Shown: positions 13,700 through 55,756 of the stretch, in pieces
How positions within the stretch are numbered: position 1 is the stretch's first letter
Layout: each line of letters begins with the position of its first letter
Assembly (NCBI GenBank): GCA_965237955.1
Contig: OZ250169.1
Span: forward strand, 7,840,001 to 7,904,000
Source: Candidatus Marinacidobacterales bacterium
GTDB taxonomy: Bacteria > Acidobacteriota > Vicinamibacteria > Marinacidobacterales > SMYC01
Length of the DNA stretch: 64,000 bases
Direction: 5' to 3'
Notes under the pieces: generated by a model
The model's input: the letters and a program-made list of their open reading frames with translations, nothing else
Database searches by the model: none
What the model was told of the DNA's origin: nothing
Position numbers and translations under genes: made by a program

Positions 13700-13977
13700 C
13701 GGACGGCCAGCTGCGCTACGCGCGACTGGCTGAGGATTTATGTTTCCAATGCTCGAGTGTCGTTGAGTGCCAGCAGGCCCTCTGCCCGCAGACGCGCTAT
13801 CCACCCCGTCCTGTGCCAAAACTCGGCCCTTTTGAAATAGACCACAAATCAGCAACTTAGACGCCCTTGGAATCCGCCGACCCTTGGGCTGCGTGGCGAG
13901 CTACGGCCAGTGAACTTCGCACCCGGAAGTCCTTTATTAGACTGGACTTTATCGAGCACAAGAGCGAACGTTCGGGG

Positions 13978-18151: not shown

Positions 18152-20356
18152 TCATGAGTCCCTGCGGGCGTCGAAATCGCGAAGGGATTGTTCCGCTTGG
18201 GCCACTATCTTTGCATTGCCACCTTTCCTTGCCAGTTCGCGCGCGATCTCGAAGTCCTCCCGCGCCTCGTCGTTGAGACCCAATGCAGCCTTCGCGGTGC
18301 CCCGTTTGCAATAGGCTTCGGCGTAGTCCGGATTCAGGCGGACCGCCCCGTCATAGTCGGTGATGGCGTCCTCATTCTGTTCCAGTGTTGCCTTTAGGAA
18401 GCCCCGGAGAAACCAGACTTCAGGCAGTTCCGGATTCAGGCGGACCGCTTCGTTGTAATCGGCGATGGCGTCTTCATGCTGGTATAGTGCTGCCTTCGTA
18501 TTGCCCCGGTTGAGGTAGGCTCCGGCATAGTTCGGATTCAGGCGGATCGCTTCGTTGTAATCGGCGATGGCGTCTTCATGCTGGTATAGTGCTGCCTTCG
18601 TATTGCCCCGGTTGAGGTAGGCTCCGGCATAGTTCGGATTCAGGCGGATCGCTTCGTTGTAATCGGCGATGGCATGTTCGTGCCGGTTCAGTACTGCTTT
18701 TACACCGCCCCGGTTGTTGTAAGCTATGGCATAGTCCGGATTCAGACGGATCGCTTCGTTGTAATCGGCGATGGCGTCTTCATGCTGGTTCAGTGCTGCC
18801 TTCGTATTGCCCCGGTTGAGGTAGGCTTCGGCATCGTTCAGATCCAGGCGGATCGCTTCGTTGTAATCGGCGATGGCATGTTCGTGCCGGTTCACTGCTG
18901 CTTTTACGAAGCCCCGGGCGTGGTAGGCTTCGGCATAGTCTGGATCTAGGCGGATCGCTTGGTCGTAATCGGTGAGGGCATCTTCATGCCGGTTCAGTTC
19001 TGCCTTTCCATTACCCCGGCTGATGTAGGCTAAAGGATAGTCTGGTTTCAGCTGGATCGCTTGGTCGTAATCGGTGAAAGCGCCCTCATGCTGGTTCAGT
19101 GCTCTCTTCGTGTTGCCCCGGTTGTTGTAGGCTCTGGCATCTTTCGGATTTAGGCGAATCGCTTGGTCGTAATCGGCGATGGCGTCTTCATGCTGGTTCA
19201 GTGCTGCCTTTCCAGTACCCCGATTGAGGTAGGCTTCGGCATAGTCCGGATTCAGGCGGATCGCTTCGTTGTAATCGGCGATGGCGTCTTCATGCCGGTT
19301 TAGTGCAGCCTTTTCAATGCCTCGGTTGTTGTAGACTACGGCATCGTCCGGTTTCAGCTGGAGCGCTTGGTCAAAATCGGCGATGGCGTCTTCATGCTGG
19401 TTTAGTGCAGCCTTTTCAATGCCTCGGTTGTTGTAGACTACGGCATCGTCCGGTTTCAGCTGGAGCGCTTGGTCAAAATCGGCGATGGCGTCTTCATGCT
19501 GGTTCAGTGCTGCTTTTCCAGCACCCCGGTTGTTGTAGGTGTCATAGGCCGGTTCCAGGCGGAGCGCTTGGTCATAGGCCGATACACTGCCTTTCGGGTC
19601 TTTGTCCTGAAGCAGATAACCGATTGAAAACCAAGCTCTGGCGGCGAGAGCGTGATCTCCTTCTTCTGCGATGTGGACGATGGCACGCCATTTCTCAATG
19701 GCATCGTCTCGGTTGCCTTCCTGCTGGAGAGAAATAGCGTGAGCAATTGCCTTATCTATCAGTGATGCTTCAGGATTTTCACGGACACTTTCAACGGCCT
19801 GATTCGCTTCTTCAGGGTTATCCGCAGCAGTCTCGGCATTCATGCGCCGGATGATCTCGTTGGATTTATAGCGGTTCCCCTCAATTTCTCTTACGTAGCG
19901 CTCAGCGGCTACGGTATGCTCGGCGGCGGTCTTGACACTATTTTTCGCCTCACTTTCGATTTCTCGGAATCGACTGAAACCTATATAACCGCCCAGGACA
20001 ACGACGATGGCAAAGAATCCAAGGACCACGGTCAGGGCAGCCAGCCACCAGTCGACGGTGCCCGCCCGATCATCTAGAAGTTCACTTCGGAGTTCGTTGA
20101 TGTAGCGCTGGATTTCGACTTCGATTGCGGGAGACATCGTCGGTCCGGCGGGCGAACCGGGTTGCCCAGACGCGTCGTCATCCGTGCTGTTCTCGTCGTC
20201 CGTTGACCTGGCGTTGACTTCCGCTCCCTCGGACTCTACAGGAACGCTTTCAATGGTGGATTCGGTTGTTTGTGCCAACGAAACCATCGGAACAGCCCCC
20301 GCCATTGCAGCAACGACAAGCCCAAGCCGAGTTCGGGCCGTAACCCACCGAATCAT
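18152..20356 (-). CDS. Membrane-anchored TPR protein (~14 repeats)
   Basis: 34-aa repeats AYxNRG..AIADYxxAIRLNP; TM segment WWLAALTVVLGFF. The first residues of the track ORF come from the repeat end. Confidence 0.92.
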   Translation of the reverse strand: MIRWVTARTRLGLVVAAMAGAVPMVSLAQTTESTIESVPVESEGAEVNARSTDDENSTDDDASGQPGSPAGPTMSPAIEVEIQRYINELRSELLDDRAGTVDWWLAALTVVLGFFAIVVVLGGYIGFSRFREIESEAKNSVKTAAEHTVAAERYVREIEGNRYKSNEIIRRMNAETAADNPEEANQAVESVRENPEASLIDKAIAHAISLQQEGNRDDAIEKWRAIVHIAEEGDHALAARAWFSIGYLLQDKDPKGSVSAYDQALRLEPAYDTYNNRGAGKAALNQHEDAIADFDQALQLKPDDAVVYNNRGIEKAALNQHEDAIADFDQALQLKPDDAVVYNNRGIEKAALNRHEDAIADYNEAIRLNPDYAEAYLNRGTGKAALNQHEDAIADYDQAIRLNPKDARAYNNRGNTKRALNQHEGAFTDYDQAIQLKPDYPLAYISRGNGKAELNRHEDALTDYDQAIRLDPDYAEAYHARGFVKAAVNRHEHAIADYNEAIRLDLNDAEAYLNRGNTKAALNQHEDAIADYNEAIRLNPDYAIAYNNRGGVKAVLNRHEHAIADYNEAIRLNPNYAGAYLNRGNTKAALYQHEDAIADYNEAIRLNPNYAGAYLNRGNTKAALYQHEDAIADYNEAVRLNPELPEVWFLRGFLKATLEQNEDAITDYDGAVRLNPDYAEAYCKRGTAKAALGLNDEAREDFEIARELARKGGNAKIVAQAEQSLRDFDARRDS

Positions 20357-21271
20357 CTCGCTTCCCGTCCTGTGCCAAAACTCGGCTCGTTTGAAATAGA
20401 CCATAATCTATACCCAGACATCACACGGTGGAAATCTATCAATAACAGAGCAGAATACGAACGCAGGTACCCCGTCGTGTCCAAAAACACAAACGAACTC
20501 AAGACCCGCGATTCCAAATACTTGTAAGCAGGCGCTTCTGCACACGGGCGCCGCGACCTCGGCCGGCGCGCCCAGCACGAGACCAGGGTCAGCGGGTTGC
20601 GGTCCCTGTCGGGCGATGCGAGGTCGGTTGCGTGTCCTTCATCATCATTATAGTCGGCACCCTGGGCATCAGCGGGGGAACCGTCCGGCGCAGCGGGCTT
20701 CTGGTCAGGCTCCATCGTTGTCCTCCGCTGCGACCTGCCCGGCATTCCGTCGTGTCCAAAAATACAAACGAACTCAAGACCGGCGCGCCGGGATTTTTCG
20801 GATGAGAGGTTGTGAGGTCGGAATACTCATGCGGCTTTCCGATGATAGAAACGTAGCAACCCGCCAAGCCGTTCAAGGGAGCGGACCTTGCGCTCGGACT
20901 GAGGTAACTGGTCGCTGTCTGGGAACAGCAGCAGATCCTCCTTGCCTTGATGATTCCTCTCGTGGTGATGGTAGACAACGTACTCCCTAAGTGCATGACG
21001 GATTCAAGCGGCCCTTGAAAAGGTGCAAACTGCTGACCCGCTGGGTGTTCGAGTATTTTGACTAGACGGGTATCTTCCACGGCGCGAGCCTCGACTGGAT
21101 TCAGGAAGGGACGGTGCACAACCGGAACCGGTGGCACAACCTCAAGTACTACACCTGGGTCGAGCAGCAGGGAAAGAGTGTCGAGGAGCTCGATGCCCAG
21201 CGCAATCCGGAGTGGTGGCTTGCGCACCAGGCGAGAGTCAAAGAGCTCGACGAAGGAATCCTCTCGCTGCG

Positions 21272-22912: not shown

Positions 22913-23070
22913 AGAGGTGTCTAGGCTTGGTTGGCAATGGAAGCTCAAAGCCTGACAATCATTGGGATTCCTGTGGGTGCTTCCGCCATCAAGAGGTGTC
23001 TAGGCTTGGTTGGCAATGGAAGCTCAAAGCCTGACAATCATTGGGATTCCTGTGGGTGCTTCCGCCATCA
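22913..23070 (+). repeat. 79-bp tandem duplication
   Basis: 22913-22991 = 22992-23070. Confidence 0.95.
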
Positions 23071-23074
23071 AGTG

Positions 23075-24499
23075 ATGGAATGGACTCCTCCGCTGACATA
23101 GACGGCATCGATGTGCCAAAGTCAGTCGAATACGCATCGAAAAGGAGGAGTCCGAATGAAAGATACGACGATCGCTGTGGATCTTGCAAAGAACGTCTTC
23201 GAGATTGCCATCTCGGGAGAAGCGGGGAAGGTGTCCAAGCAACTCCGTGTGAGTCGACCCAAGTTGGTGTCGTTTTTTGCCAAACAGAGCGCTGCCACCG
23301 TGCTTCTCGAAGCCTGCGGCTCTGCTCACTTCTGGGCAAGGACGTTCCGAAGGTTGGGACACGACGTCGTCCTGCTCCCACCTCACCTCGTGAGGCCCTA
23401 TCGACGCGGGAGCAAGAACGACCGCGCCGACGCCAAAGCGTTGCTCGAGGCCTACAGGAACGAGGAGATTCTTCCCGTGCCCATTAAGTCCGTGCACCAG
23501 CACAGCCTCGCCGCGCTCCATCGCCTGCGCTCAGGATGGCTCTCCACACGGACCGCACGCATCAATGCCGTACGCGGGATCCTGCGCGAACTCGGATTCA
23601 TCATCCCAAAGGGCGCTCACTTCGTCGTGCCCGCCCTCTTCGAACTCGTCGAAGACGCTGATTCTGATTTGCCCGACGTGCTCCGTTCGCATCTCCGTGA
23701 TGCCTGCTCCGAGATTCGAGAACTCAAGGACAAGTGCGCTGGCATCGAGCACGAGCTCAAGGCGCTCACCAAGCAGCTTCCTGAAGTCCAACGACTTCTC
23801 GCCATTCCCGGCATCGGACTTCTGACCGCGACCGCCATCGTGGGCTTCGTCGGCGATCTTCGCCGCTTCCCATCGGGGCGCCGCTTCTCGAGCTACCTCG
23901 GCCTAGTTCCCAAGGAAAACTCCAGTGGCGACATTCGCCGCCTCGGACGCATCACCAAGCGTGGCGACTCCTACCTCCGTATGCTCCTCACCCAGGGCGG
24001 GCGCGCCGTGCTCCGCGCGGCGAACGTCAGTAAGAGCCCGCCCGACAAGCTCCGCGCCTGGGCTCGGAAGGTCCACCGCTCGCGGGGACACAACAAGGCC
24101 GTGATTGCTGTCGCCAACAAACTCGCCCGGATCGTCTGGGCCGTCTCCACCCGCGAGAGTGAATTCCAGTCGCCGATGGCCGCTTAGACTTAGAGGCTCC
24201 ACTTTCGTGTTTTCCTTTTTCCCTTCCAAAAGAGGCTGCGACGATACCCATCCAACTGATGGCGTACCGGTCGGACCGGCGCGGGGTCAAGCCGATAGCA
24301 ACACTGGCCCTAAGAGGTCGTTCAAAGTGATTGGCTCCTCGCGCGCGGATTTTCCATCATGGCCCGGAGCACCCAAGACGCTCCTCACTGAGGCCGAAGA
24401 TACGTTTGCAGTCTGACCCACTCGTCACGACGCGATGGATGCGCAGCTTCGATGGAAGATTTATTAAGAAAGGGGCTTGACTAGAGGAGTCCAGATATG
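23075..24499 (+). mobile_element. IS110 family, IS1111 type, copy 1 (transposase 23156-24187)
   Basis: DEDD motifs VDLAK/LEAC/KNDRADA and PKENSSG serine; subterminal IR TGGACTCCTC/GAGGAGTCCA; ~310-bp 3' NCR. Confidence 0.95.
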
Positions 24500-24837
24500 A
24501 ATTCCAGTCGCCGATGGCCGCTTAGACTTAGAGGCTCCACTTTCGTGTTTTCCTTTTTCCCTTCCAAAAGAGGCTGCGACGATACCCATCCAACTGATGG
24601 CGTACCGGTCGGACCGGCGCGGGGTCAAGCCGATAGCAACACTGGCCCTAAGAGGTCGTTCAAAGTGATTGGCTCCTCGCGCGCGGATTTTCCATCATGG
24701 CCCGGAGCACCCAAGACGCTCCTCACTGAGGCCGAAGATACGTTTGCAGTCTGACCCACTCGTCACGACGCGATGGATGCGCAGCTTCGATGGAAGATTT
24801 ATTAAGAAAGGGGCTTGACTAGAGGAGTCCAGATATG
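24162..24837 (+). repeat. 338-bp tandem duplication of the IS110 3' end and NCR
   Basis: 24162-24499 = 24500-24837. Confidence 0.95.
24230..24420 (+). ncRNA. Putative bridge/seek RNA in the IS1111 3' NCR (boundaries approximate; also at ~24568-24758 and in copy 2)
   Basis: Segments match the target (TCAAG 24287-24291, TAGCAACACT 24296-24305) and the donor junction (TTCCATCAT 24352-24360, AGATA 24398-24402). Confidence 0.8.
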
Positions 24838-26020
24838 TTGCTACGCGGCTGCGGGCAGTGGTACAGGTGCGGAAGAGACCGGGTTGCGCGCCCTAGTGAG
24901 CAGGAAAACCTCGATCCGCAACCACAAAGGAATCGTCGTCGCCAAGAAGATGTCTCGAAAGGTGAGCCGTCGCGTCGTCAGACCAGCCTGCATAGCCGGA
25001 GTTCGGATCTCACGTCCGAACTTCAGAGCTCCGTGCGGTCGGACGAAGTTGTAATAGCAACGGAGCAACTCCAGGTGCTCATCGAGCCTCTCCGTCGAGC
25101 GAGCGTGGGAAAGCGTTCGTCTCGAAAGGTATGCCGAGCTTTGCCGGATGGTCAGATTCAACCGCTCGATGAACGACGTGTTCAATGTCGAAGAGTCCTC
25201 GGAGTTATTGAGCGCGTCTTCGAATCGCCACGCGGCTCCGTGCAGCGCTCTCCGTTCGACCTTGATGATACGATCGTTCCTGCGAGTTTTGAGGACTTGG
25301 CCGTAGAGACACGCTGGCCCGAAGAAGCGACGGATGACCTTCTGGTAGAATTCGAATCCATCCGTAACGATCAAGGGAAGATGCTCGAAATTCATCCGCC
25401 TCGAAAGGTCGTGAAACAGAGCGTGAGTGTTCCGGTAGCTTCGCCTTCCCGTCACCGTCGATGGCCAGAGCCGAGACCAGACCTCGATCGTAACGAAGAC
25501 CCAACTCGGCGTCTTCTTGTCGCCCGCGAACGTGCGAATCTCGTCGGCTTGAAGCTCTTCGGCAGCGAAGCCGGCGATCCTTGTGTGGTTGAATTGACGA
25601 CACACTTGGGCTGCCTTCTCGAGCCAGCGGGCGACGGTGTTCCAGGCAATCCCTTCGATCCGGGAAATCGCGGAAATGCTGATACCCTCGACTCTGAGAG
25701 CGATGACCACATCGAAAGTAGCTCTTCGATGTTGGAGACGGTAGTAGGGCGTGCCTTTCGTCGAGGAGAACGTCTTTCCGCACTCGCCGCACCGGTATCG
25801 ACGGCGTTTCCCGGACCTGGTTCGGTAGAATCCGTGGCGAACGATGTTTCCGGAACTGACTTTGCCCCGCAACGGACATGCGGGATTGAGACATCTGCTA
25901 TTCTTCACTTCGGCTCGGCCCTGACGATGAGAGAACTGTGTCTTCAGAATTCTGGTTCAAACTCTAGCACGCGAACGGGTTACGCGGCAGCCACCAACAC
26001 TTCATGGCGGAAGCACCCAC

Positions 26021-32666: not shown

Positions 32667-34091
32667 CATATCTGGACTCCTCTAGTCAAGCCCCTTTCTT
32701 AATAAATCTTCCATCGAAGCTGCGCATCCATCGCGTCGTGACGAGTGGGTCAGACTGCAAACGTATCTTCGGCCTCAGTGAGGAGCGTCTTGGGTGCTCC
32801 GGGCCATGATGGAAAATCCGCGCGCGAGGAGCCAATCACTTTGAACGACCTCTTAGGGCCAGTGTTGCTATCGGCTTGACCCCGCGCCGGTCCGACCGGT
32901 ACGCCATCAGTTGGATGGGTATCGTCGCAGCCTCTTTTGGAAGGGAAAAAGGAAAACACGAAAGTGGAGCCTCTAAGTCTAAGCGGCCATCGGCGACTGG
33001 AATTCACTCTCGCGGGTGGAGACGGCCCAGACGATCCGGGCGAGTTTGTTGGCGACAGCAATCACGGCCTTGTTGTGTCCCCGCGAGCGGTGGACCTTCC
33101 GAGCCCAGGCGCGGAGCTTGTCGGGCGGGCTCTTACTGACGTTCGCCGCGCGGAGCACGGCGCGCCCGCCCTGGGTGAGGAGCATACGGAGGTAGGAGTC
33201 GCCACGCTTGGTGATGCGTCCGAGGCGGCGAATGTCGCCACTGGAGTTTTCCTTGGGAACTAGGCCGAGGTAGCTCGAGAAGCGGCGCCCCGATGGGAAG
33301 CGGCGAAGATCGCCGACGAAGCCCACGATGGCGGTCGCGGTCAGAAGTCCGATGCCGGGAATGGCGAGAAGTCGTTGGACTTCAGGAAGCTGCTTGGTGA
33401 GCGCCTTGAGCTCGTGCTCGATGCCAGCGCACTTGTCCTTGAGTTCTCGAATCTCGGAGCAGGCATCACGGAGATGCGAACGGAGCACGTCGGGCAAATC
33501 AGAATCAGCGTCTTCGACGAGTTCGAAGAGGGCGGGCACGACGAAGTGAGCGCCCTTTGGGATGATGAATCCGAGTTCGCGCAGGATCCCGCGTACGGCA
33601 TTGATGCGTGCGGTCCGTGTGGAGAGCCATCCTGAGCGCAGGCGATGGAGCGCGGCGAGGCTGTGCTGGTGCACGGACTTAATGGGCACGGGAAGAATCT
33701 CCTCGTTCCTGTAGGCCTCGAGCAACGCTTTGGCGTCGGCGCGGTCGTTCTTGCTCCCGCGTCGATAGGGCCTCACGAGGTGAGGTGGGAGCAGGACGAC
33801 GTCGTGTCCCAACCTTCGGAACGTCCTTGCCCAGAAGTGAGCAGAGCCGCAGGCTTCGAGAAGCACGGTGGCAGCGCTCTGTTTGGCAAAAAACGACACC
33901 AACTTGGGTCGACTCACACGGAGTTGCTTGGACACCTTCCCCGCTTCTCCCGAGATGGCAATCTCGAAGACGTTCTTTGCAAGATCCACAGCGATCGTCG
34001 TATCTTTCATTCGGACTCCTCCTTTTCGATGCGTATTCGACTGACTTTGGCACATCGATGCCGTCTATGTCAGCGGAGGAGTCCATTCCAT
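32667..34091 (-). mobile_element. IS1111-type copy 2 (transposase 32979-34010), inserted in the right IR of an IS1 deletion derivative (~32465-34127)
   Basis: Identical protein to copy 1; same target AAG-TG-TTGCTAC. Confidence 0.95.
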
Positions 34092-34138
34092 CACTTGATG
34101 GCGGAAGCACTTGATGGCGGAAGCACCGAATAGAGTCC

Positions 34139-37747: not shown

Positions 37748-39187
37748 GTGCTGGACAGCCAGTTGAGGTCGTTTCAACGGACGTGGATTCGACGTTCTCT
37801 GGCTCCTGGTATTGACTTGGGAGTCCTGAGTATTCCGCGTGGAAACGGAAAAACGGCGTTAGCAGCCCACGTTGTTGCGCTGGCGATGACACCTGGCTCC
37901 AGTCTCTACAAGCCCAACAACGAGGTCGTGTTGATTAGCGGTAGCACGGCTCAAAGCAGGTTCGCTCACAAGTTTGTGAAACGGGAGCTTGAAGAACTGG
38001 GCCTGTACCGTTGGAGCTCGTCTCTAACTTCGATGGGCGCTCGGGACACTAAGAACGGCGTCGAGCTCCGGGTGATGTCGAGCAATCCGCGAACGGCTCA
38101 CGGGCTTGTCGGTGTGTCTATGGTTTTCTGCGACGAACCTTCAAGTTGGGAAAACCAAGCGGGCTCCGATATGTGGGACGCGATTCTCACGGCGCAAGGG
38201 AAGCCGTCGAGCAAACTCCGTGTTCTGGCCGTTGGCACTCGTGCGCCTTCGCGGCCGGGCTCATGGTGGCTTGCGCTTATCGACAAGGGCTCGGGCGGGA
38301 GCGTGTACGTTCAAGAGCTCCGCGGCCGTCTCGATCGCTGGGATTCATGGGCAGAGATTAGACGGTGCAATCCGCTCACTGAAATCTCGTCGGAGTTTCG
38401 CAAGAAGCTGTTGCAAGAGAGAGACGCAGCAAGAAAAGACGAGAGGTTGAAAGCCAGATTTTTGAGTTTTCGGTTGAACCTGGAAAGCACCGACGAATCC
38501 ACAATGCTGCTTACCGTTCCCGAGTGGCGAAAGTGCGAGGGCCGCGAGCTCGGGCCGGACTGCGGTGCGCCAGTGGTCGGCGTCGATTTGGGCTCGGGTA
38601 GGTCGTGGAGTGCAGCCACCGCCGTTTTTCCTGGTGGGCGTGTTGAAGCGGTCGCGATCACAAGCGGGCTTCCCGATATCGCAGCACAGGAAAAAAGAGA
38701 CGTTGCGGTGAGAGGAGCCTATCAACGGCTTGTTGATGAGGGCTCGTTGTTGGTAGACCGTGGCAGGAATATTCCACGGGTTTCCGTTCTGGCCGATGAA
38801 GTTCTTAGGCGATGGCCGGGGCTCGCGTTCTTGGTGTGCGATAGGTTTAGACTCCCCGAGCTCCTGGACGCCTTCGCCGGCAAGGTTCGCATTTTCCCAA
38901 GGGTAACTCGATGGTCGGAAAGCTCCGCCGATATACGCGCTGTACGTGCGCTTGCCTTGGATGGCGAGCTCAGTGTTGAGCCTTCGTCTCGGGCGTTGAT
39001 GCGCGTTGCGCTGGCGGCCGCGACGGTGCAGAGCGACACATCCGGGAATTGCAGACTTATCAAGGCTGGTACAAACCAAACCGAGCGAGATGATCCAGCA
39101 CATGCTTTTGTTCTAGCGGCGGGCGCGTTGTCGAGGTTTCGGAAGTCCGCTCCTCCGGTCCTTCATATCGTGAGGCGGACGGGTTGA
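37748..39187 (+). CDS. Phage terminase large subunit
   Basis: Walker A PRGNGKT, Walker B FCDE, nuclease VGVDLG and DD..A. Confidence 0.85.
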   Translation: MLDSQLRSFQRTWIRRSLAPGIDLGVLSIPRGNGKTALAAHVVALAMTPGSSLYKPNNEVVLISGSTAQSRFAHKFVKRELEELGLYRWSSSLTSMGARDTKNGVELRVMSSNPRTAHGLVGVSMVFCDEPSSWENQAGSDMWDAILTAQGKPSSKLRVLAVGTRAPSRPGSWWLALIDKGSGGSVYVQELRGRLDRWDSWAEIRRCNPLTEISSEFRKKLLQERDAARKDERLKARFLSFRLNLESTDESTMLLTVPEWRKCEGRELGPDCGAPVVGVDLGSGRSWSAATAVFPGGRVEAVAITSGLPDIAAQEKRDVAVRGAYQRLVDEGSLLVDRGRNIPRVSVLADEVLRRWPGLAFLVCDRFRLPELLDAFAGKVRIFPRVTRWSESSADIRAVRALALDGELSVEPSSRALMRVALAAATVQSDTSGNCRLIKAGTNQTERDDPAHAFVLAAGALSRFRKSAPPVLHIVRRTG

Positions 39188-44841: not shown

Positions 44842-46537
44842 TGTCAACAACTTTGAGACACCCGCGGACTGCATTTAGTGAGCCTCAATCAATGCAGTAA
44901 GACTCGTGGGCCCGGGGCGGTCACCGTCTGCGTGCGGCGAGATCTGGTCGCGTTGGCCTGAATCCGGGGGTACCCCAGGTGTGGACCACCTCGAGAAAGT
45001 GGCTCCGGCGGCCTCCTGGCGCGTCGTTTTCTCCGGCGGCGGGTTGATCCAGGCCTGAGGAGGCAAAACGGGGGGCTGTGGCATTCCGCGAACGAAGCGT
45101 TCGGGATGAGCCCGATGAGCTTCGAGGAGGATTTGGCGCCGGGCAGTGGTGAGCTGTTCCGCGAGACCATCGTGAACGGCGGCCGGTGTCATGAGGCCGA
45201 TTCCCGAGTGCCGGCGTTCGTGATTGTAGTAGTCGAGGAAGCCGCCGCAGAACAGCCGGCCGTCTTCGATGGAACCAAAACGGCTCGGAAACTGAGGGCA
45301 ATACTTCAGAGTCTTGAACTGGGACTCGGAGTAGGGGTTATCGTTCGAGACGTAAGGTCTGGAGTGGGTCTTGGTAACGCCGAGGTCAGCCAGGAGCATA
45401 GCTACGGACTTGCTTCGCATCGAGCTGCCACGGTCGGCGTGGATGGTGAGCTGGTCTGGTTCGATGTTCTGTTTGCGGCAGCTCTCGCTGATGAGACGAC
45501 GAGCGAGCTCAGCGCTTTCTCGTCGAGCCAACATCCACCCGGTCACGTAACGGGAGAAGATGTCCAGAATCACGTAGAGGTAGTAGTAGGTCCACTTGAC
45601 GGGGCCACGCAGCTTGGTGATATCCCACGACCAAACCTGGTTCGGCGCTTCGGCCAGCAGCTCCGGCTTTTGATAATTCGGATGTCGCAGCTGGTTCCGG
45701 CGCTCTCGGACCTCTCCGTTCTCCGCCAGAATCCGATACATCGTGCGGATCGAGCAGTAGTAGATTCCCTCGTCCAGGAGCGTGGCCCACACCTGAGCGG
45801 GCGCCTTGTCGACGAACCGCTCGGAGTGCAAGGCACCGAGAACCAGCTCACGTTCGGTCACATCGAGGGCTCGGTGCGACCGGCGTTTCGCATTGGACGT
45901 CACCGTCTGGCGCCTGCGATACAACGTGGAGCGAGCTATTCCAAGGGCCTCGCAGGCTTCCGCCGTCTGTCCAATTCGTCCCGCCAGCTCCTCGGCCGCC
46001 ACCATCAATCGTTCTCGTCGCTGTCTGGTGGATTCAGGGGGACCCCCAGAAGTTCGGAGGTTTTTTTTTGGATCTCTAGCATCGTCTCCACCCGAGCCAG
46101 GCGATGCTTCAATCGCGCGTTCTCGCGCTCGAGCTCCTTGACCCGTGGATCCTCTGCCTTCGCCTTCCGTCCTCGCTTCCTCGATGTCAACCCCGCCTTG
46201 GCAATCTTGTCACGTTGGCGACGCCAACTCGAAAGATGCGACGAGTACAGTCCCTCTCGACGCAGAAGAGCCGCAACATCCCCGTCACCCTTGCAAGCAT
46301 CGGCCTCGCGCACTATCCGCAGCTTGTACTCTGCGGTAAAGCGTCGACGCTTCGCTTGCTCACTCACTTCGGGATCCGGGACCCCTGCCGCATCGCGGCC
46401 GGCGCGATCTGCAGTCGCCCTACGGGCTCCTTCCGATCCCGCCGGGGTCATTCTCTCAATCAACGTAGTCATTCATGATCCTCCTCCGCCCTCTACACTA
46501 ATTTCAAGGGGCGAAGTGTCTCAAGGAGGTTGGCACA
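44842..46537 (-). mobile_element. IS3-like element; orfA 46005-46472, orfB 44875-46008
   Basis: TGT...ACA ends; RRRFTAEYK; WSWDIT, HADRG, DNPYSE; ATGA overlap. Confidence 0.88.
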
Positions 46538-47295
46538 GAGGGAAGCAAGTGAACGGCGGCGTAGAAGCCTTTCACGTTGCGCCACACAACGATCTGTCCG
46601 AGACAAGGCGTCCGAACGCGAGATGTGTAGTCCAGCGACCCAGCATTTACTACTTGTGCGATGGACGTGCACCCTCGGGCCAGTGCAATACCGTTGATTG
46701 ACTGAGGATCGTTGTACACATGGATGCTCGTGTCGCTCGCTTTGGTCCATTCCGTTTCGAATTTCAGCACTTCAGAACCGATGACATAGCGACCGTTATG
46801 GCTACTGTAGTCAAACACAACCTCGCCGGCCGGGGAAGTCATTCTCGGGGGAGGCATTTCGGAAGCCTTACCATTGAAACGCTCGATTCCGAGCTTTTCC
46901 GCTATCGTCGCCGCAAGTTGTGAAGGCGTGTGTTCTTCGGCGCGTAAGAAGATAACGTCTTCCTGCAATCCAGGGACCGAAGTGTCATCGAAGCGCACCG
47001 GAAGAACATATTCTCTCTGTGCTCCGAGCGCGCGGCTCATGGCGGACCGTCTCTCATGACGCGTCCAAGCCTTGTCGACATATGCTTGGGAAATGAACAT
47101 CACGACATAGGCGGCCTGTTGCTCGAATGCTTGATGAAAGGCCTCCGCGCCGTTCTGGCCCCATAACGACACCTTCTCGAAGCCGTCGTAGAACACCGCG
47201 ATAGATCGCTCGTGAAGACACCGCGCTACCTCTTCAACGTAGCTCCGTTGTTCACCGGCAAAGGATAACGCCACTTGATACTGCATGTTCCTCAT
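46538..47295 (-). CDS. TIR-domain protein, C-terminus clipped by IS
   Basis: YQVALSFAGEQR, VFYD, FIS..Y....WT..E, LPVRFD. Confidence 0.85.
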
Positions 47296-49140: not shown

Positions 49141-49860
49141 ATCACAAGATGGAATGCGAAAAGGACTCTCGCTAGGTGTGCTGATTATCGGGTCGCTTTA
49201 CTGGGACCCCGTCCTGTGCCAAAACTCGGCCCTTTTGAAATAGGCCATAAATCAGCAACTTAGTGTCTGTGTTTGCGACCGGGCCAAGGGACGTGGGCTT
49301 TACAATCGTCTTGGGCGGGCGGGTCGTCACCATGCAGATGACCTCCTAGTCGAGAGCGAATATCGAAGCGTGTTCCTGAAGCTGTTTCCACGCTACGCCG
49401 GTCGATCCCGCCGAGGGGCTACCGTCGCCGGCGACCATCTACGCGGCACGGCAGTAGTAGTTGAGAATGCCCCCAAGTCGCTCTCGCGACACGATGGGGC
49501 CAGCGTCATTCGCGCTTGCCGGCAGAGGTGTGAGGAGCTCGTTGCCGAGACCTTGGTGGTTCCGTTCTGTGTGATAGTGCACTACGTATTCGGTTTTATT
49601 TCACCAACACTTAATGGCGGAAGCACCGTCTATTTCAAAAGAGCCGAGTTTCGGCACAGGACACGGTCAAGTACAAGTACAAGGGCGGCAAAGTTCTGAC
49701 CGAAAAGTTATTTATTCGGAGATAGTTATAGAGATTCGGCCTCCCACGACGAAGGGCGCCGGAAATGATTTAGTTGAAACTGGCTCCGCTCCCGGCGAGC
49801 TGGTCTTGAGTTCGTTTGTGTTTTTGGACACGACGCGCATGAGTATTTTGACCTCACGCC

Positions 49861-49890
49861 TTGACATGCTAGACATTTGTCTGGTACGGT
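49861..49890 (+). promoter_or_regulatory. lexA promoter with candidate operator
   Basis: TTGACA-18-TACGGT with palindrome AGACA-TT-TGTCT at 49871-49882. Confidence 0.6.
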
Positions 49891-49895
49891 TAAAC

Positions 49896-50528
49896 GTGCC
49901 CAAGACACCTCCAGGTGAGACACGCGAACGGGTCTACGAGTTCGTCCGGGAGCGCCTGTGGAGCGGCCGACCGCCGACGATCCGGGAAGTGCAACACGCC
50001 TTTCACTTCCGCGCCGTCGAAACGGCACGGGCTCACCTCGAAGCCCTCGTCCAACAAGGTCTCCTGGTGAAACGAAACGGAGAGGCACGCGGGTATGCCC
50101 TCCCCGAGCTCGAGAGCAACCATTTGCCGAGGCTCGTTCCTATTCTGGGGCACGTCCAAGCGGGCGCTCTCAGCACCGCGGTCGAAGATCTCGAAGGCTA
50201 CGTTCCGGTCGAAGCCACCGGCTCCTCGCAAGAGCTCTTCGCTCTTCGGGTCCAGGGCGAGAGTATGACTGGGGCGGGCATCTACCCGAACGATCTCGTC
50301 ATCGTAAAAAGGCAAGCCACGGCGCACTCTGGAGAAATCATCGTTGCACTCGTCGAGGACGAGGCCACGATCAAGCGCCTCCGGATCCGAAACGGCCACA
50401 TCGAGCTCCATCCGGAGAATCCAGATTTCGACATCATCGTCCCGACCCGCTTTCAAAGCTCGATTCTGGGCCGGGTCATCGAGATTCGCAGGTTTTTGGA
50501 CAAAGCCTCGTCACCCATTCGCGATTGA
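49896..50528 (+). CDS. lexA: LexA repressor
   Basis: PPTIREV, LG.V.AG cleavage site, V.GESM, ATIKR; GTG start at 49896. Confidence 0.93.
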   Translation: MPKTPPGETRERVYEFVRERLWSGRPPTIREVQHAFHFRAVETARAHLEALVQQGLLVKRNGEARGYALPELESNHLPRLVPILGHVQAGALSTAVEDLEGYVPVEATGSSQELFALRVQGESMTGAGIYPNDLVIVKRQATAHSGEIIVALVEDEATIKRLRIRNGHIELHPENPDFDIIVPTRFQSSILGRVIEIRRFLDKASSPIRD

Positions 50529-50540
50529 AGTATTACCTTC

Positions 50541-51212
50541 ATGTTCATCTCGCGCGCTTTCGCCAAGGGACTTCTCTCCTCGTCTCCCTCTCTCGCCGAG
50601 AGCGTCAAGCAAGATTGGGGGCTCGCGCAGATGGCGGGCCGCCTCGTTGAGATTTCCGGAGAGCGTGCGTCGGCGAATTTGACGGTCGCGATAGGTCTCG
50701 TGCTCGAAGCCCAACAACGTGGTGAGCATGCGTCCTGGGTGACATTACGGCACAGTACGTTTTTTCCGCCCGATGTGGCCGCCTGCGGCGTTTCATTGAG
50801 GCATTTGGTCACCGTCCGCGTGGAGACGCTTCGTGACGCCACTCGAGCCGTCGTCGAGCTGACGCGCTCGGGCGGCTTCGACCTCGTCGTGCTCGACCGG
50901 GGTCCCGAAGCGCTCCTCGTGGGCAGAAGCTTTTCTCGGCTTTCAAAAAAGAAGCAGTATCGCGAGCGATTCTCGACTCCGCTTCTCACTAAGCTCGCCG
51001 GTTTAGCTCGAAAACATCGAACCGCCGTCGTCGTTCTGACGGAGAAAAACGAGCGGGCGAGCTCATTGAGTTCGCTCATTTCGCTGCGCGCCGAAACCAA
51101 ACGCGACAAGGACGAGCCTTGTCGACTGGAGATTCACTTGTTGAAAGACAAAAGGCGTGGGCCAGGACGACGTCATCACGAGGTATGCCATGCACCGGAT
51201 GGCCTGCGTTGA
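50541..51212 (+). CDS. imuA: ImuA/RecA-like protein
   Basis: GRLVEISG, FFPPD, RSGGFDLVVLD; cassette position. Confidence 0.82.
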   Translation: MFISRAFAKGLLSSSPSLAESVKQDWGLAQMAGRLVEISGERASANLTVAIGLVLEAQQRGEHASWVTLRHSTFFPPDVAACGVSLRHLVTVRVETLRDATRAVVELTRSGGFDLVVLDRGPEALLVGRSFSRLSKKKQYRERFSTPLLTKLAGLARKHRTAVVVLTEKNERASSLSSLISLRAETKRDKDEPCRLEIHLLKDKRRGPGRRHHEVCHAPDGLR

Positions 51213-52686
51213 TATCCCGGCTTTCCCGTTACAGCTCCTGTTCAAGGAGCATCCCGATTGGCGCGAATTTCCCGCCGCCGTCGTCGCCGAAGAAAAGCCT
51301 CAAGCCTTCATCCTTTGGGTCAACGAGAAAGCGAGACATTTCGGGATCCGTCCGGGCCATCGTTACGCCTCCGGGCTCGCACTTTCACGAGAGCTGCGCG
51401 CAGGGGCCATCGGCGACGAGTTTGTTCGAAGAGAAGTTGCAGCGCTCACGGAAAGACTTCGCCAATTCACGCCCGAAGTCGAGCCCGCAGACGAAAAGTG
51501 GCACTCTCCCGGCCTTTTCTGGCTGAACGCTTCGGGTCTCGAGCGGCTGTTCTCCTCGCTTTCCACGTGGGGGCGCAACATCCGTGCCGCGCTCGACGCC
51601 ATGGAGTTTTTTTCTTCGGTAAGCGTGGGCTATACCCGCTTCGGCAGCTATGCCGTGGCTCGTGCTCATCGAGGCCTCACAGTCCTCAAAAGCCGCGACG
51701 AAGAAGAAAGCGCGGCACGCCGCGTGCCGCTCTCACGTCTCGACATTCCACCGGACGCCCAGGAATCCTTTCTCAAGCTCGGGGTGCGCACCGTCGCCGA
51801 TCTGCTCCACTTGCCCGCCAAAGGGCTTTCGAAACGATTCGGTCCCGAAGTCCATGACCTGCATCGTCTCGCGCGCGGAGATCTTTTTGGTCCGCTCGCA
51901 CCCAAGCCTCCGATCGAGCCTCTCGAAGAGCGGATGGAGCTTCCGGGGCCGGAGATCGACAGCGAGCGCCTGTTGTTCTTCATCAAGCGGCTCGTCGATG
52001 CCTTGCTCGAAAAACTCGACGCCAAGAGCCTCGCGTTGACCAGGCTCACCCTGAAGCTCGTGCTCGACGATCGAAGCACTTGTCAAGAAGAGCTTCGCCC
52101 CGACACGCCCACGCTCGATGGCCCCAAACTCTTGGGACTCATCCGGCTGCGGCTCGAGAGCGTGCAGCTTCCTGCTGGAGCGGTCGAGCTCGCCATCGGT
52201 GCCAAAGCATCCCGCAAGAAGAACGAACAACTGTCCTTAGTCACCGATAACCCGAAACGCGATCCTGAGAAAAGGGGGTTGGCCTTAGCGCGACTGCGCG
52301 CCGAGCTCGGAGACCACGCGGTCGTCTGCGCCCAGCTCACCGATGGGCACCTTCCCCGGGCTCGGTTTCAATGGACGCCTCTTACGAGCGCGGTCACCGC
52401 GGAAGTTCCAGCGACCAAGAGTCGTCGAACGCTGATTCGGCGCATCTACGACGCTCCCACGGCGCTTCCTCCGCGTTCCCGTCACGAGCCGGACGGCTGG
52501 ATGCTGCGCGGGCTCGAGTTCGGTCCGGTCCGCGATTTTCTGGGCCCCTACATTCTTTCAGGAGGCTGGTGGAAGCGTACCGTTCAGCGCGAGTACTACT
52601 TCGTGACCATGCAGCAAGGCGACATCTATTGGGTTTTCTACGATCGGTTCCGCCGCTGGTGGTTTCTGGAAGGACACGTGGAATAA
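51190..52686 (+). CDS. imuB: ImuB (inactive Y-family polymerase-like)
   Basis: [16 protein letters not shown]....GWW...REYY; start MHRMAC after RBS. Confidence 0.88.
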
Positions 52687-52711
52687 GCCGCCTGGCACGA
52701 TCCTCTCTCTC

Positions 52712-55756
<3,045 letters not shown>

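What the first reader, a model, noticed from the sequence alone, without database searches (positions are those of the whole stretch)
23055..24846. IS1111 bridge/seek RNA appears programmed against the right IR of an IS1 element; guides are readable
Seen: both IS110 copies sit at CCATCAAG-TG-TTGCTACG inside the IS1 right IR. The 3' NCR carries TCAAG (24287, target left, top strand) and TAGCAACACT (24296, reverse complement of AGTGTTGCTA). It also carries TTCCATCAT (24352) and AGATA (24398), matching the predicted circle junction CAGATA-TG-ATGGAA. Five unoccupied IS1 IRs (tips 4956, 26017, 41527, 48117, 49627) read TG-TTGG, mismatching the guide. Established: IS110/IS1111 use NCR-encoded guide RNAs, and IS4321/IS5075 target Tn21 IRs. 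Inference: an RNA-guided parasite that immobilises or rides an IS1 element, and a candidate recombinase with a TG core.
Basis: partly seen in the sequence, partly recalled or inferred. Interest (0 to 1): 0.82.

Follow-up and report, generated by a model that had tools for sequence, protein, structure and literature searches.

The report
Guide-RNA transposon retargeted onto transposon ends
A small jumping gene sits at the same spot in one end of another jumping gene in all 25 of its copies in this genome, a predicted guide RNA matching that spot likely steers it there, and a near-identical sister copy with a slightly different predicted guide sits in an integron-type site instead, so this is a known mechanism with a new target.

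Summary
The element (23073-24497, plus a 338-bp tail duplication) is an IS1111-family IS with the same ends and RNA scaffold as the attC-targeting ISPa25 (46% aa). All 25 left ends of this type in the genome follow TCAAG in an IS1-like terminal repeat. All 18 target-side right ends read TGTTGCTA. No intact empty right end remains, while four related genomes keep 11-71.

Corrections:
- The left target guide is AAG(TG) at 24325-24329, not TCAAG at 24287.
- TG is not an obligate core: the two junction dinucleotides differ in 17 of 21 elements.
- Most hosts are 244-bp MITEs. Riding has no support, and immobilising is untested.

Added here: a 91%-identical sister copy in the same genome sits in an attC-like site, and its guides match that site. 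This likely marks a recent attC-to-IS-end retargeting by guide edits.

The mechanism, IR targeting (IS4321/IS5075), natural reprogramming and half-match duplications are all published. This scan noted the same element in other genomes (e1-6378549, e1-780204). Verdict: new member of a known kind.

The parts
22915..23072 (+). 79-bp tandem duplication of the left flank; each unit ends at the target-left half CCATCAAG
23055..23072 (+). outer 18 bp of the host IS1-like right inverted repeat (left half of the target, ends TCAAG)
23073..24497 (+). IS1111-family element, 1425 bp, TGATGGA...ATA
23081..23090 (+). left subterminal inverted repeat TGGACTCCTC
23156..24187 (+). DEDD recombinase, 343 aa (D9, E52, D89, D92 and GLVPKENSSG by motif)
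   Evidence: PF01548 + PF02371; NF033542 308.9 bits over cut-off 140; motifs
24234..24414 (+). predicted bridge / long seek RNA, closed by a GGCTGC...GCAGTC stem; target loop 5', donor loop 3'
   Evidence: alignment of 25 relatives, 9 of 26 consensus pairs with two-sided changes; no Rfam match
24296..24305 (+). predicted right target guide (complement of the top strand, AGTGTTGCTA)
24325..24329 (+). predicted left target guide AAG plus TG (may extend to 24322 with a one-base bulge)
   Evidence: covariation 50/54 vs null 16.4
24352..24360 (+). predicted right donor guide TTCCATCAT (complement of A|TGATGGAA)
24398..24404 (+). predicted left donor guide AGATA followed by CG
   Evidence: covaries with the right end in L119, L120, L123
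24477..24482 (+). TTGACT, predicted -35 box of the circle-junction promoter
   Evidence: sequence; function inferred from PMC11187229
24484..24493 (+). right subterminal inverted repeat GAGGAGTCCA
24498..24835 (+). 338-bp tandem copy of the element's 3' end (second RNA gene and second right end), joined at AGATA|TGAATT
   Evidence: the same duplication is at C1:1134010
24836..24843 (+). right half of the target TGTTGCTA; CTA is the complement of the host transposase stop codon
24841..25908 (-). host IS1-like single-ORF transposase (zinc-ribbon cysteines, D122/D183/E248 by motif), intact
25995..26017 (-). host left inverted repeat (TG-TTGG type, unoccupied)
32669..34093 (-). second, identical IS1111 copy in a MITE-type right end, with a 16-bp left-flank duplication

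Best explanation
This is an IS1111-family insertion sequence that sits 18 bp inside the right inverted repeat of an IS1-like element and its MITEs, and its 3' non-coding region is predicted to make a bridge/seek RNA that likely guides the DEDD recombinase to (TC)AAG|TGTTGCTA. Shown: the fixed site, the ends, the empty site in relatives, and guide-target covariation. Inferred from characterised relatives: copy-out to a circle joined at ATA|TGATGG, a junction promoter, and insertion just 5' of the TG without a duplication. The long 5' guide reads the right half, including the host stop codon, and so tells the right repeat (TTGCTA) from the left (TTGG). The short 3' guide reads AAG. The lineage likely arose from an attC-targeting ancestor by a few guide edits and now uses the abundant host ends as neutral landing sites. 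The tandem repeats at both junctions are likely one-ended (half-match) by-products.
For: 25 of 25 main-type left ends follow TCAAG in an IS1-like tip, and 18 of 18 target-side right ends read TGTTGCTA. None of 38 tips with TCAAG-TG-TTGG is occupied. Of 48 right-end bodies, 15 are occupied, 19 are empty with an altered site, 14 lack a tip and 0 are empty and intact. The empty site occurs 71, 0, 18, 11 and 48 times in five relatives and 0 times here; one empty/filled pair shares a flank (L185/L004). Covariation: left guide 50/54 (0 of 20000 shuffles), right guide 112/190 vs 64 (0 of 20000). The sister copy (91% nt, 93% aa) lies in a 113-bp attC-like hairpin; its right guide matches 10 of 10 and its left guide reads CAG as its flank does. 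The top-ranked plasmid match is ISPa25-family, with the same ends and scaffold, inserted in an attC. The published ISKpn4 insertion point is AA*CG (PMC13604230 Table 1), the same register.
Against: No RNA, circle or recombination was observed; the circle junction is absent from the assembly. One perfect 13-bp site that has lost its outer tip is empty (C1:3549650), as are two other AAGTGTTGCTA 11-mers, so the guide may not be the only determinant. In relatives one copy has a left-IR-type right flank (L001), and in G004 6 of 11 parsed left ends are outside IS1-like repeats, though all 6 end in AG and 3 in TCAAG. The direct left-guide match is only 3 nt, and the right-guide register shifts by one base between elements. 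The sister is a single copy at a single site. The direction attC to IR rests on a quick tree with support 81 for the IS1-IR group.
Confidence: 0.88

Rival explanations
1. The composite IS1::IS1111 moves as a unit (the IS1111 rides), because its left end TGATG nearly rebuilds the host repeat.
For: After insertion 22 of 23 IR positions are unchanged.
Against: The nine occupied MITEs with both tips differ by 5-48 edits, while ten full IS1111 copies are 100% identical. In G003, 0 of 435 pairs of occupied hosts are identical over 244 bp, while the IS1111 falls into haplotypes of 16 and 8. 0 of 29 occupied ends has an identical occupied twin.
Confidence: 0.15
2. The IS1111 acts as an RNA-guided suppressor that immobilises the host IS, and empty host ends with altered sites are escape variants.
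For: No intact empty right end is left. Of four close long host transposase matches, one is occupied and three have altered sites. In G003, 16 of 62 empty ends have an identical empty twin at another flank, against 0 of 29 occupied-occupied.
Against: Only about 1.4 occupied twin pairs were expected from the rate among empties (11 of 946 IS-type pairs, applied to 120; my arithmetic), so zero is uninformative. Survivor bias alone leaves only mutated sites empty. The host ORF and 22 of 23 IR bases stay intact.
Confidence: 0.25
3. One reading: TCAAG at 24287 is the left target guide and TG is a shared core.
For: TCAAG precedes 25 of 25 insertions here and 3 of 6 off-repeat insertions in G004, while the alternative guide needs a bulge to explain the TC. 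TG flanks both junctions in this lineage.
Against: That position matches left flanks at 26/90 vs null 25.2 (9220 of 20000 shuffles). The sister keeps CAAG although its flank is CCAG. The order contradicts the IS1111 pattern (PMC11187229). Junction dinucleotides agree in only 4 of 21, and empty sites in L047 read CATC|CCCTTGTT.
Confidence: 0.07
4. Site choice is mainly by protein or DNA structure (for example host transposase bound at the repeat, or a hairpin), with the RNA match secondary.
For: The three isolated perfect 11-mers are empty. A target stem-loop adds specificity for ISPpu10 (abstract of 10.64898/2026.03.19.712850).
Against: Guides covary with targets across the clade. Off-repeat insertions L033 and L034 keep TCAAG|TGTTGCT in unrelated DNA. 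Left repeats with the same outer 20 bp are not used here.
Confidence: 0.1

Closest known systems
ISPa25 / ISKpn4 / ISPst6 / ISPa21 (IS1111-attC group)
   Same: ISPa25-family recombinase 46% identical over 343 aa, ISPa21-family 42%; same left end, same right-end layout, same RNA scaffold and guide order; same insertion register (PMC13604230 Table 1). The sister copy here sits in an attC-like site.
   Different: The window lineage targets an IS1-like right inverted repeat, not attC. Its right flank starts TG rather than CG/CC.
IS4321 / IS5075
   Same: IS1111 elements that insert at one position in the terminal inverted repeat of another mobile element, described as a safe harbour, with spill-over into look-alike sites (PMC8269217 passages).
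   Different: Their host is Tn21-like Tn3-family transposons; here it is an IS1-like IS and its 244-bp MITEs.
ISEc11 / ISXne4 natural redirection
   Same: Related recombinases with changed guide bases and a changed target (PMC11187229).
   Different: That pair is 72% identical; this pair is 93% identical, lies in one genome, switches target class, and includes a one-base register change.
Half-match tandem expansion of IS110 loci (bioRxiv 10.64898/2026.08.14.744561; 10.64898/2026.08.31.748434)
   Same: Tandem units that keep the left-donor boundary and duplicate part of the element; partial-match recombination.
   Different: Arrays anchored on the left target half (up to 8 tip copies in a row at C1:2861941-2862344) were not described in the passages I saw.

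Membership tests
IS1111 family | DEDD (RuvC-like) recombinase of about 330-350 aa with GL-P----S(t)G motif | tested here: met
   343 aa, PF01548 + PF02371, NF033542 over cut-off, motifs; definition from PMC11187229
IS1111 family | Subterminal inverted repeats with about 7 bp left and 3 bp right extensions | tested here: met
   10-bp perfect repeat at 23081 and 24484, one base under the usual 11-13; extensions are 7 and 3 if the mismatched outer pair is counted
IS1111 family | Long non-coding region downstream of tnp | tested here: met
   24188-24497, conserved fold in 25 relatives
IS1111 family | Top-strand-complementary guide 5' of the bottom-strand guide | tested here: met
   covariation; order as in PMC11187229
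IS1111 family | Fixed site and orientation, no target duplication | tested here: met
IS1111 family | Circular intermediate with junction promoter; RNA bound by the recombinase and needed for movement | not testable with these tools
   -35-like TTGACT present; junction absent from the assembly; no reads examined
IS1111-attC group | Inserts into attC sites | tested here: not met
   window lineage is in IS1-like repeats; only the sister copy is in an attC-like site
IS1 family (host element) | IS1-type DDE transposase with N-terminal zinc ribbon | tested here: inconclusive
   best NCBIfam hit NF033558 at 84.4 bits, under cut-off 100; 9 of 20 listed plasmid matches are annotated IS1 (family) transposase, at 23-31% identity; motifs present
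IS1 family (host element) | About 23-bp terminal inverted repeats starting GG (recalled) | tested here: met
   23 bp with one mismatch in the window element
IS1 family (host element) | 8-9 bp target duplication (recalled; some single-ORF members are recalled to make none) | tested here: not met
   longest duplication 3 bp in 37 tip pairs, 2 bp in 17, 3 bp in 13; the host is therefore called IS1-like only

The most novel reading that the evidence does not exclude
A recent jump of target class, from integron attC hairpins to the end of another IS, was made by a handful of guide edits on a nearly unchanged recombinase. The retargeted element now acts as an RNA-guided suppressor that has exhausted every intact right end of an IS1-like family, leaving only escape variants and spilling into half-match duplications: a guide-driven arms race between two insertion sequences, with both programmes present in one genome.
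Probability: 0.2. Interest if true: 0.65.

Novelty: new member of a known kind. Interest (0 to 1): 0.42.

Why it matters
It gives a natural, testable pair: two recombinases 93% identical in one genome, one in an attC-like site and one in an IS end, with the guide differences readable base by base. The family-wide comparison also gives design rules for IS1111-type bridge RNAs: a long right guide, a 3-5 nt left guide, a junction 5' of the YG dinucleotide, and no need for donor and target to share that dinucleotide. That matters to those engineering these enzymes. The mechanism itself, targeting of another element's repeat, and natural reprogramming are already in print.

Tried and rejected
- TCAAG (24287) as left guide, and four shifted registers of it: no covariation.
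- Shared TG core: rejected.
- Target duplications as a marker of host or composite movement: none exist, so unusable.
- Twin test for immobilisation: no power.
- Rfam: 0 matches at E<=1.
- Promoter scan of the linear locus: 3 consensus hits, all in the duplicated left flank, none for the RNA.
- The careful tree did not finish; only the quick tree was used, and no clade test was run.
- The guide parser recovered 33 of 131 loci and missed the close relatives; their target loops were read.
- The right-end pattern fitted only G003, so duplication rates could not be counted in G004-G007. The contrast of 6 of 24 here against 1 of 32 in G003 (Fisher p 0.035) is weak because three of the six are at one locus.
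- Assembly artefact as the source of the 338-bp duplication is unlikely: the same junction occurs at two loci in different hosts, and similar ones occur in G003 and G004. It was not checked against reads.
- A review on IS families was not held, so IS1 end and duplication rules are recalled.

Full report
Observation. The quoted strings are at the stated places. The element runs 23073-24497 (1425 bp) and encodes a 343-aa DEDD recombinase at 23156-24187. The copy at 32669-34093 is identical. The flagged copy also carries a tandem repeat of its last 338 bp and a 79-bp repeat of its left flank. In 5000 resamples of the 227-nt region, the 10-nt right-target match and the 9-nt donor match are beyond chance (P 0.0006, 0.0036), but 5-nt matches such as TCAAG and AGATA are not (0.59, 0.46).

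Genome survey. The genome is one 8.13-Mb contig. A left-end search gave 27 hits: 25 follow TCAAG in an IS1-like tip, one is a divergent sister copy and one is an unrelated short hit. A right-end search gave 28 hits: 18 read TGTTGCTA next, 6 run into a repeat of the element's own tail, one is the sister and 3 are chance. Of 219 host-type tips, 25 are occupied and 117 are empty TG-TTGG ends, 38 of them with a perfect TCAAG. The 7 empty TGTTGCTA ends all have a changed left half. Found by inner sequence alone, 48 right ends split into 15 occupied, 19 empty with an altered 13-bp site, 14 without a tip and 0 empty and intact. Against this, one tipless end keeps a perfect 13-mer and is empty, and four identical empties differ only at the last base. 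The uninterrupted site is real: it occurs 71, 0, 18, 11 and 48 times in five related genomes (their records are titled Candidatus Marinacidobacterales) and 0 times here.

The host. In the window it is a 1200-bp single-ORF element with 23-bp inverted repeats. The insertion lies 18 bp from the right tip and 5 bp past the stop codon, and the CTA read by the guide is the complement of that stop codon. Of the 11 occupied sites with an opposite tip within 3 kb, 10 are short MITE-type hosts of about 220-375 bp, mostly near 244, and only the window copy is full length. The transposase scores best against the IS1 model but under its cut-off; 9 of 20 listed plasmid matches are annotated IS1. No target duplication over 3 bp was found in 37, 17 and 13 tip pairs. 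I therefore call it IS1-like.

Guides. I fetched 76 genome and 53 metagenome loci. A parser recovered the target loop in 33 of 131 sequences (these loci plus the window and sister copies), 29 with a left flank, giving 18 distinct left targets. The three bases 5' of the conserved YGATTGG match the left flank at 50 of 54 (null 16.4; 0 of 20000 shuffles); by position from the junction the matches are 18, 17, 15, 8 and 9 of 18. The 5' side of the loop matches right flanks at 112 of 190 in the best fixed register (null 64.0; 0 of 20000; 19 distinct flanks), and the register slips by a base between elements. Some rows share a guide (L106/L116), so they are not fully independent. The left guide here is thus AAG at 24325-24327, after the right guide, which is the order reported for IS1111 seekRNAs (PMC11187229). 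The donor guides covary with the ends in L119, L120 and L123. The consensus fold of 25 RNAs has 26 pairs, 9 with two-sided changes.

No obligate TG core. The two bases after the left and right junctions agree in 4 of 21 elements; 17 have TG on the left and CG, CC or CA on the right. In L047 two empty sites upstream of the element read CATC|CCCTTGTT; its own right end is off the contig, but relatives with the same left flank have that right flank. So TG belongs to the element's left end, and the junction lies 5' of the dinucleotide. The duplication junctions that lack microhomology break at the same point, and the published ISKpn4 site is AA*CG (PMC13604230 Table 1). My inference is that the geometry is flipped relative to IS621, with a long right guide and a short left guide.

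Sister copy. At C1:5247238-5245814 lies one copy 91% identical in DNA and 93% in protein. Its rejoined site is a 113-bp imperfect palindrome closed by TAAC and GTTA boxes (-22.6 kcal/mol against -13.8 +/- 2.6 in 200 base shuffles). Seven related empty sites exist in the genome, two within 6 kb on the same strand. An integron integrase over its cut-off lies elsewhere; the attC consensus is recalled. The sister's right guide matches its right flank 10 of 10, and its left guide ends CAG like its flank. In a quick tree of 38 recombinases, 14 rows have attC-like right flanks by my pattern, 8 other, 4 IS1-repeat and 12 unknown. The IS1-repeat group (5 rows, support 81) has the sister as nearest row inside an 8-row clade (100). 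The top-ranked plasmid match is an ISPa25-family element, 46% identical, with the same left end and scaffold, inserted in an attC. The likely history is attC ancestor first, IS end later; this direction was not tested with a clade test.

Ride or immobilise. Insertion leaves 22 of 23 repeat bases unchanged, so the end may still work. But occupied hosts are all different (5-48 edits among 9 MITEs here; 0 of 435 identical pairs in G003), while the IS1111 copies are identical or nearly so. This points to independent insertions into already dispersed hosts. Using 62 of the 71 empty G003 sites, 16 had an identical twin at another flank, against 0 of 29 occupied-occupied; only about 1.4 such pairs were expected, so immobilisation is undecided.

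By-products and exceptions. Across this genome and the close relatives, 15 of 77 right ends are followed by a repeat of upstream sequence and 53 by the target. Six of 87 left ends had a repeat of the left-flank 12-mer upstream; one of these is a neighbouring host tip rather than a duplication. Tandem units keeping the left-donor boundary, and half-match recombination, are described in two preprints. In G004, which also has no empty site, 6 of 11 parsed left ends lie outside host repeats, all ending in AG, and two keep TCAAG|TGTTGCT. One G003 copy has a left-repeat right flank (L001). A link between target exhaustion and misfiring is suggested by two genomes only.

Literature seen. PMC11187229: parts 1-5 of 9 of the text and a term search of its supplements (figures are pictures; one file unreadable). 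Passages only: PMC11208160, PMC12288879, 10.1101/2025.10.25.684509, PMC13626964, PMC8269217, PMC13604230. First part plus passages: 10.64898/2026.08.31.748434, 10.64898/2026.08.14.744561. Abstract and outline: 10.64898/2026.03.19.712850. Partridge and Hall 2003 and Post and Hall 2009 were seen only as titles in reference lists. Eight searches listed no paper whose title or abstract opening reports an IS1111 in IS1 repeats. The library lacks most subscription papers, ISfinder and preprint supplements, so this is weak evidence of absence.

Verdict. A real, well-supported IS1111 element with a target class I did not find in print, a correction to the guide map, and a useful sister pair. Mechanism and ecology follow known patterns, and this scan has noted the same element and the same kind of duplication in other genomes. 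New member of a known kind; interest 0.42.

Noticed in passing
G000 C1:2861941-2862344: Eight tandem copies of the host tip with 48-62 bp of left flank, each ending at CCATCAAG, directly upstream of an IS1111 copy; it looks like a repeat array but is likely recombinase misjoining.
   Followed up: partly
window D4 repeats, e.g. 13805-13877; genome-wide: A repeat end beginning CCCGTCCTGTGCCAAAACTC has 496 matches in the genome, and 8 of 219 IS1-like tips abut its position 12; two IS1-type units are flanked by this 12-mer on both sides (C1:743022-744248, 3051686-3054440), hinting at a third level of nesting.
   Followed up: partly
host IS1-like elements and MITEs, genome-wide: No target-site duplication in any of 67 tip pairs examined in this and related genomes, unusual for an IS1-like element.
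   Followed up: partly
L032:2576-2756: In this relative the left donor guide has changed from AGATA-CG to AGATA-TG, matching the TG right flank of the retargeted lineage.
   Followed up: no
L078, L091, L103, L106, L108, L111, L119, L120: Relatives with matching guides but right flanks that are neither attC-like nor IS1-like, so the clade has likely been retargeted several times; the targets were not identified.
   Followed up: no
G000 C1:3346207-3347146 and C1:5241392-5242211: An integron integrase over the family cut-off, and attC-like sites far from it.
   Followed up: partly
window 49614-55756: LexA-like, ImuB-like (IMS) and DnaE-like genes in a row, a likely SOS mutagenesis cassette.
   Followed up: no
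window 18152-20404, 37748-39187, 46504-47295: A TPR-repeat protein with 102-bp repeats, a terminase-like ORF and a TIR-domain ORF among many IS5, IS3 and IS481-like remnants.
   Followed up: no
G000 C1:4984342: A short IS1111-like left-end motif with its own inverted partner just upstream and no recombinase behind it.
   Followed up: no
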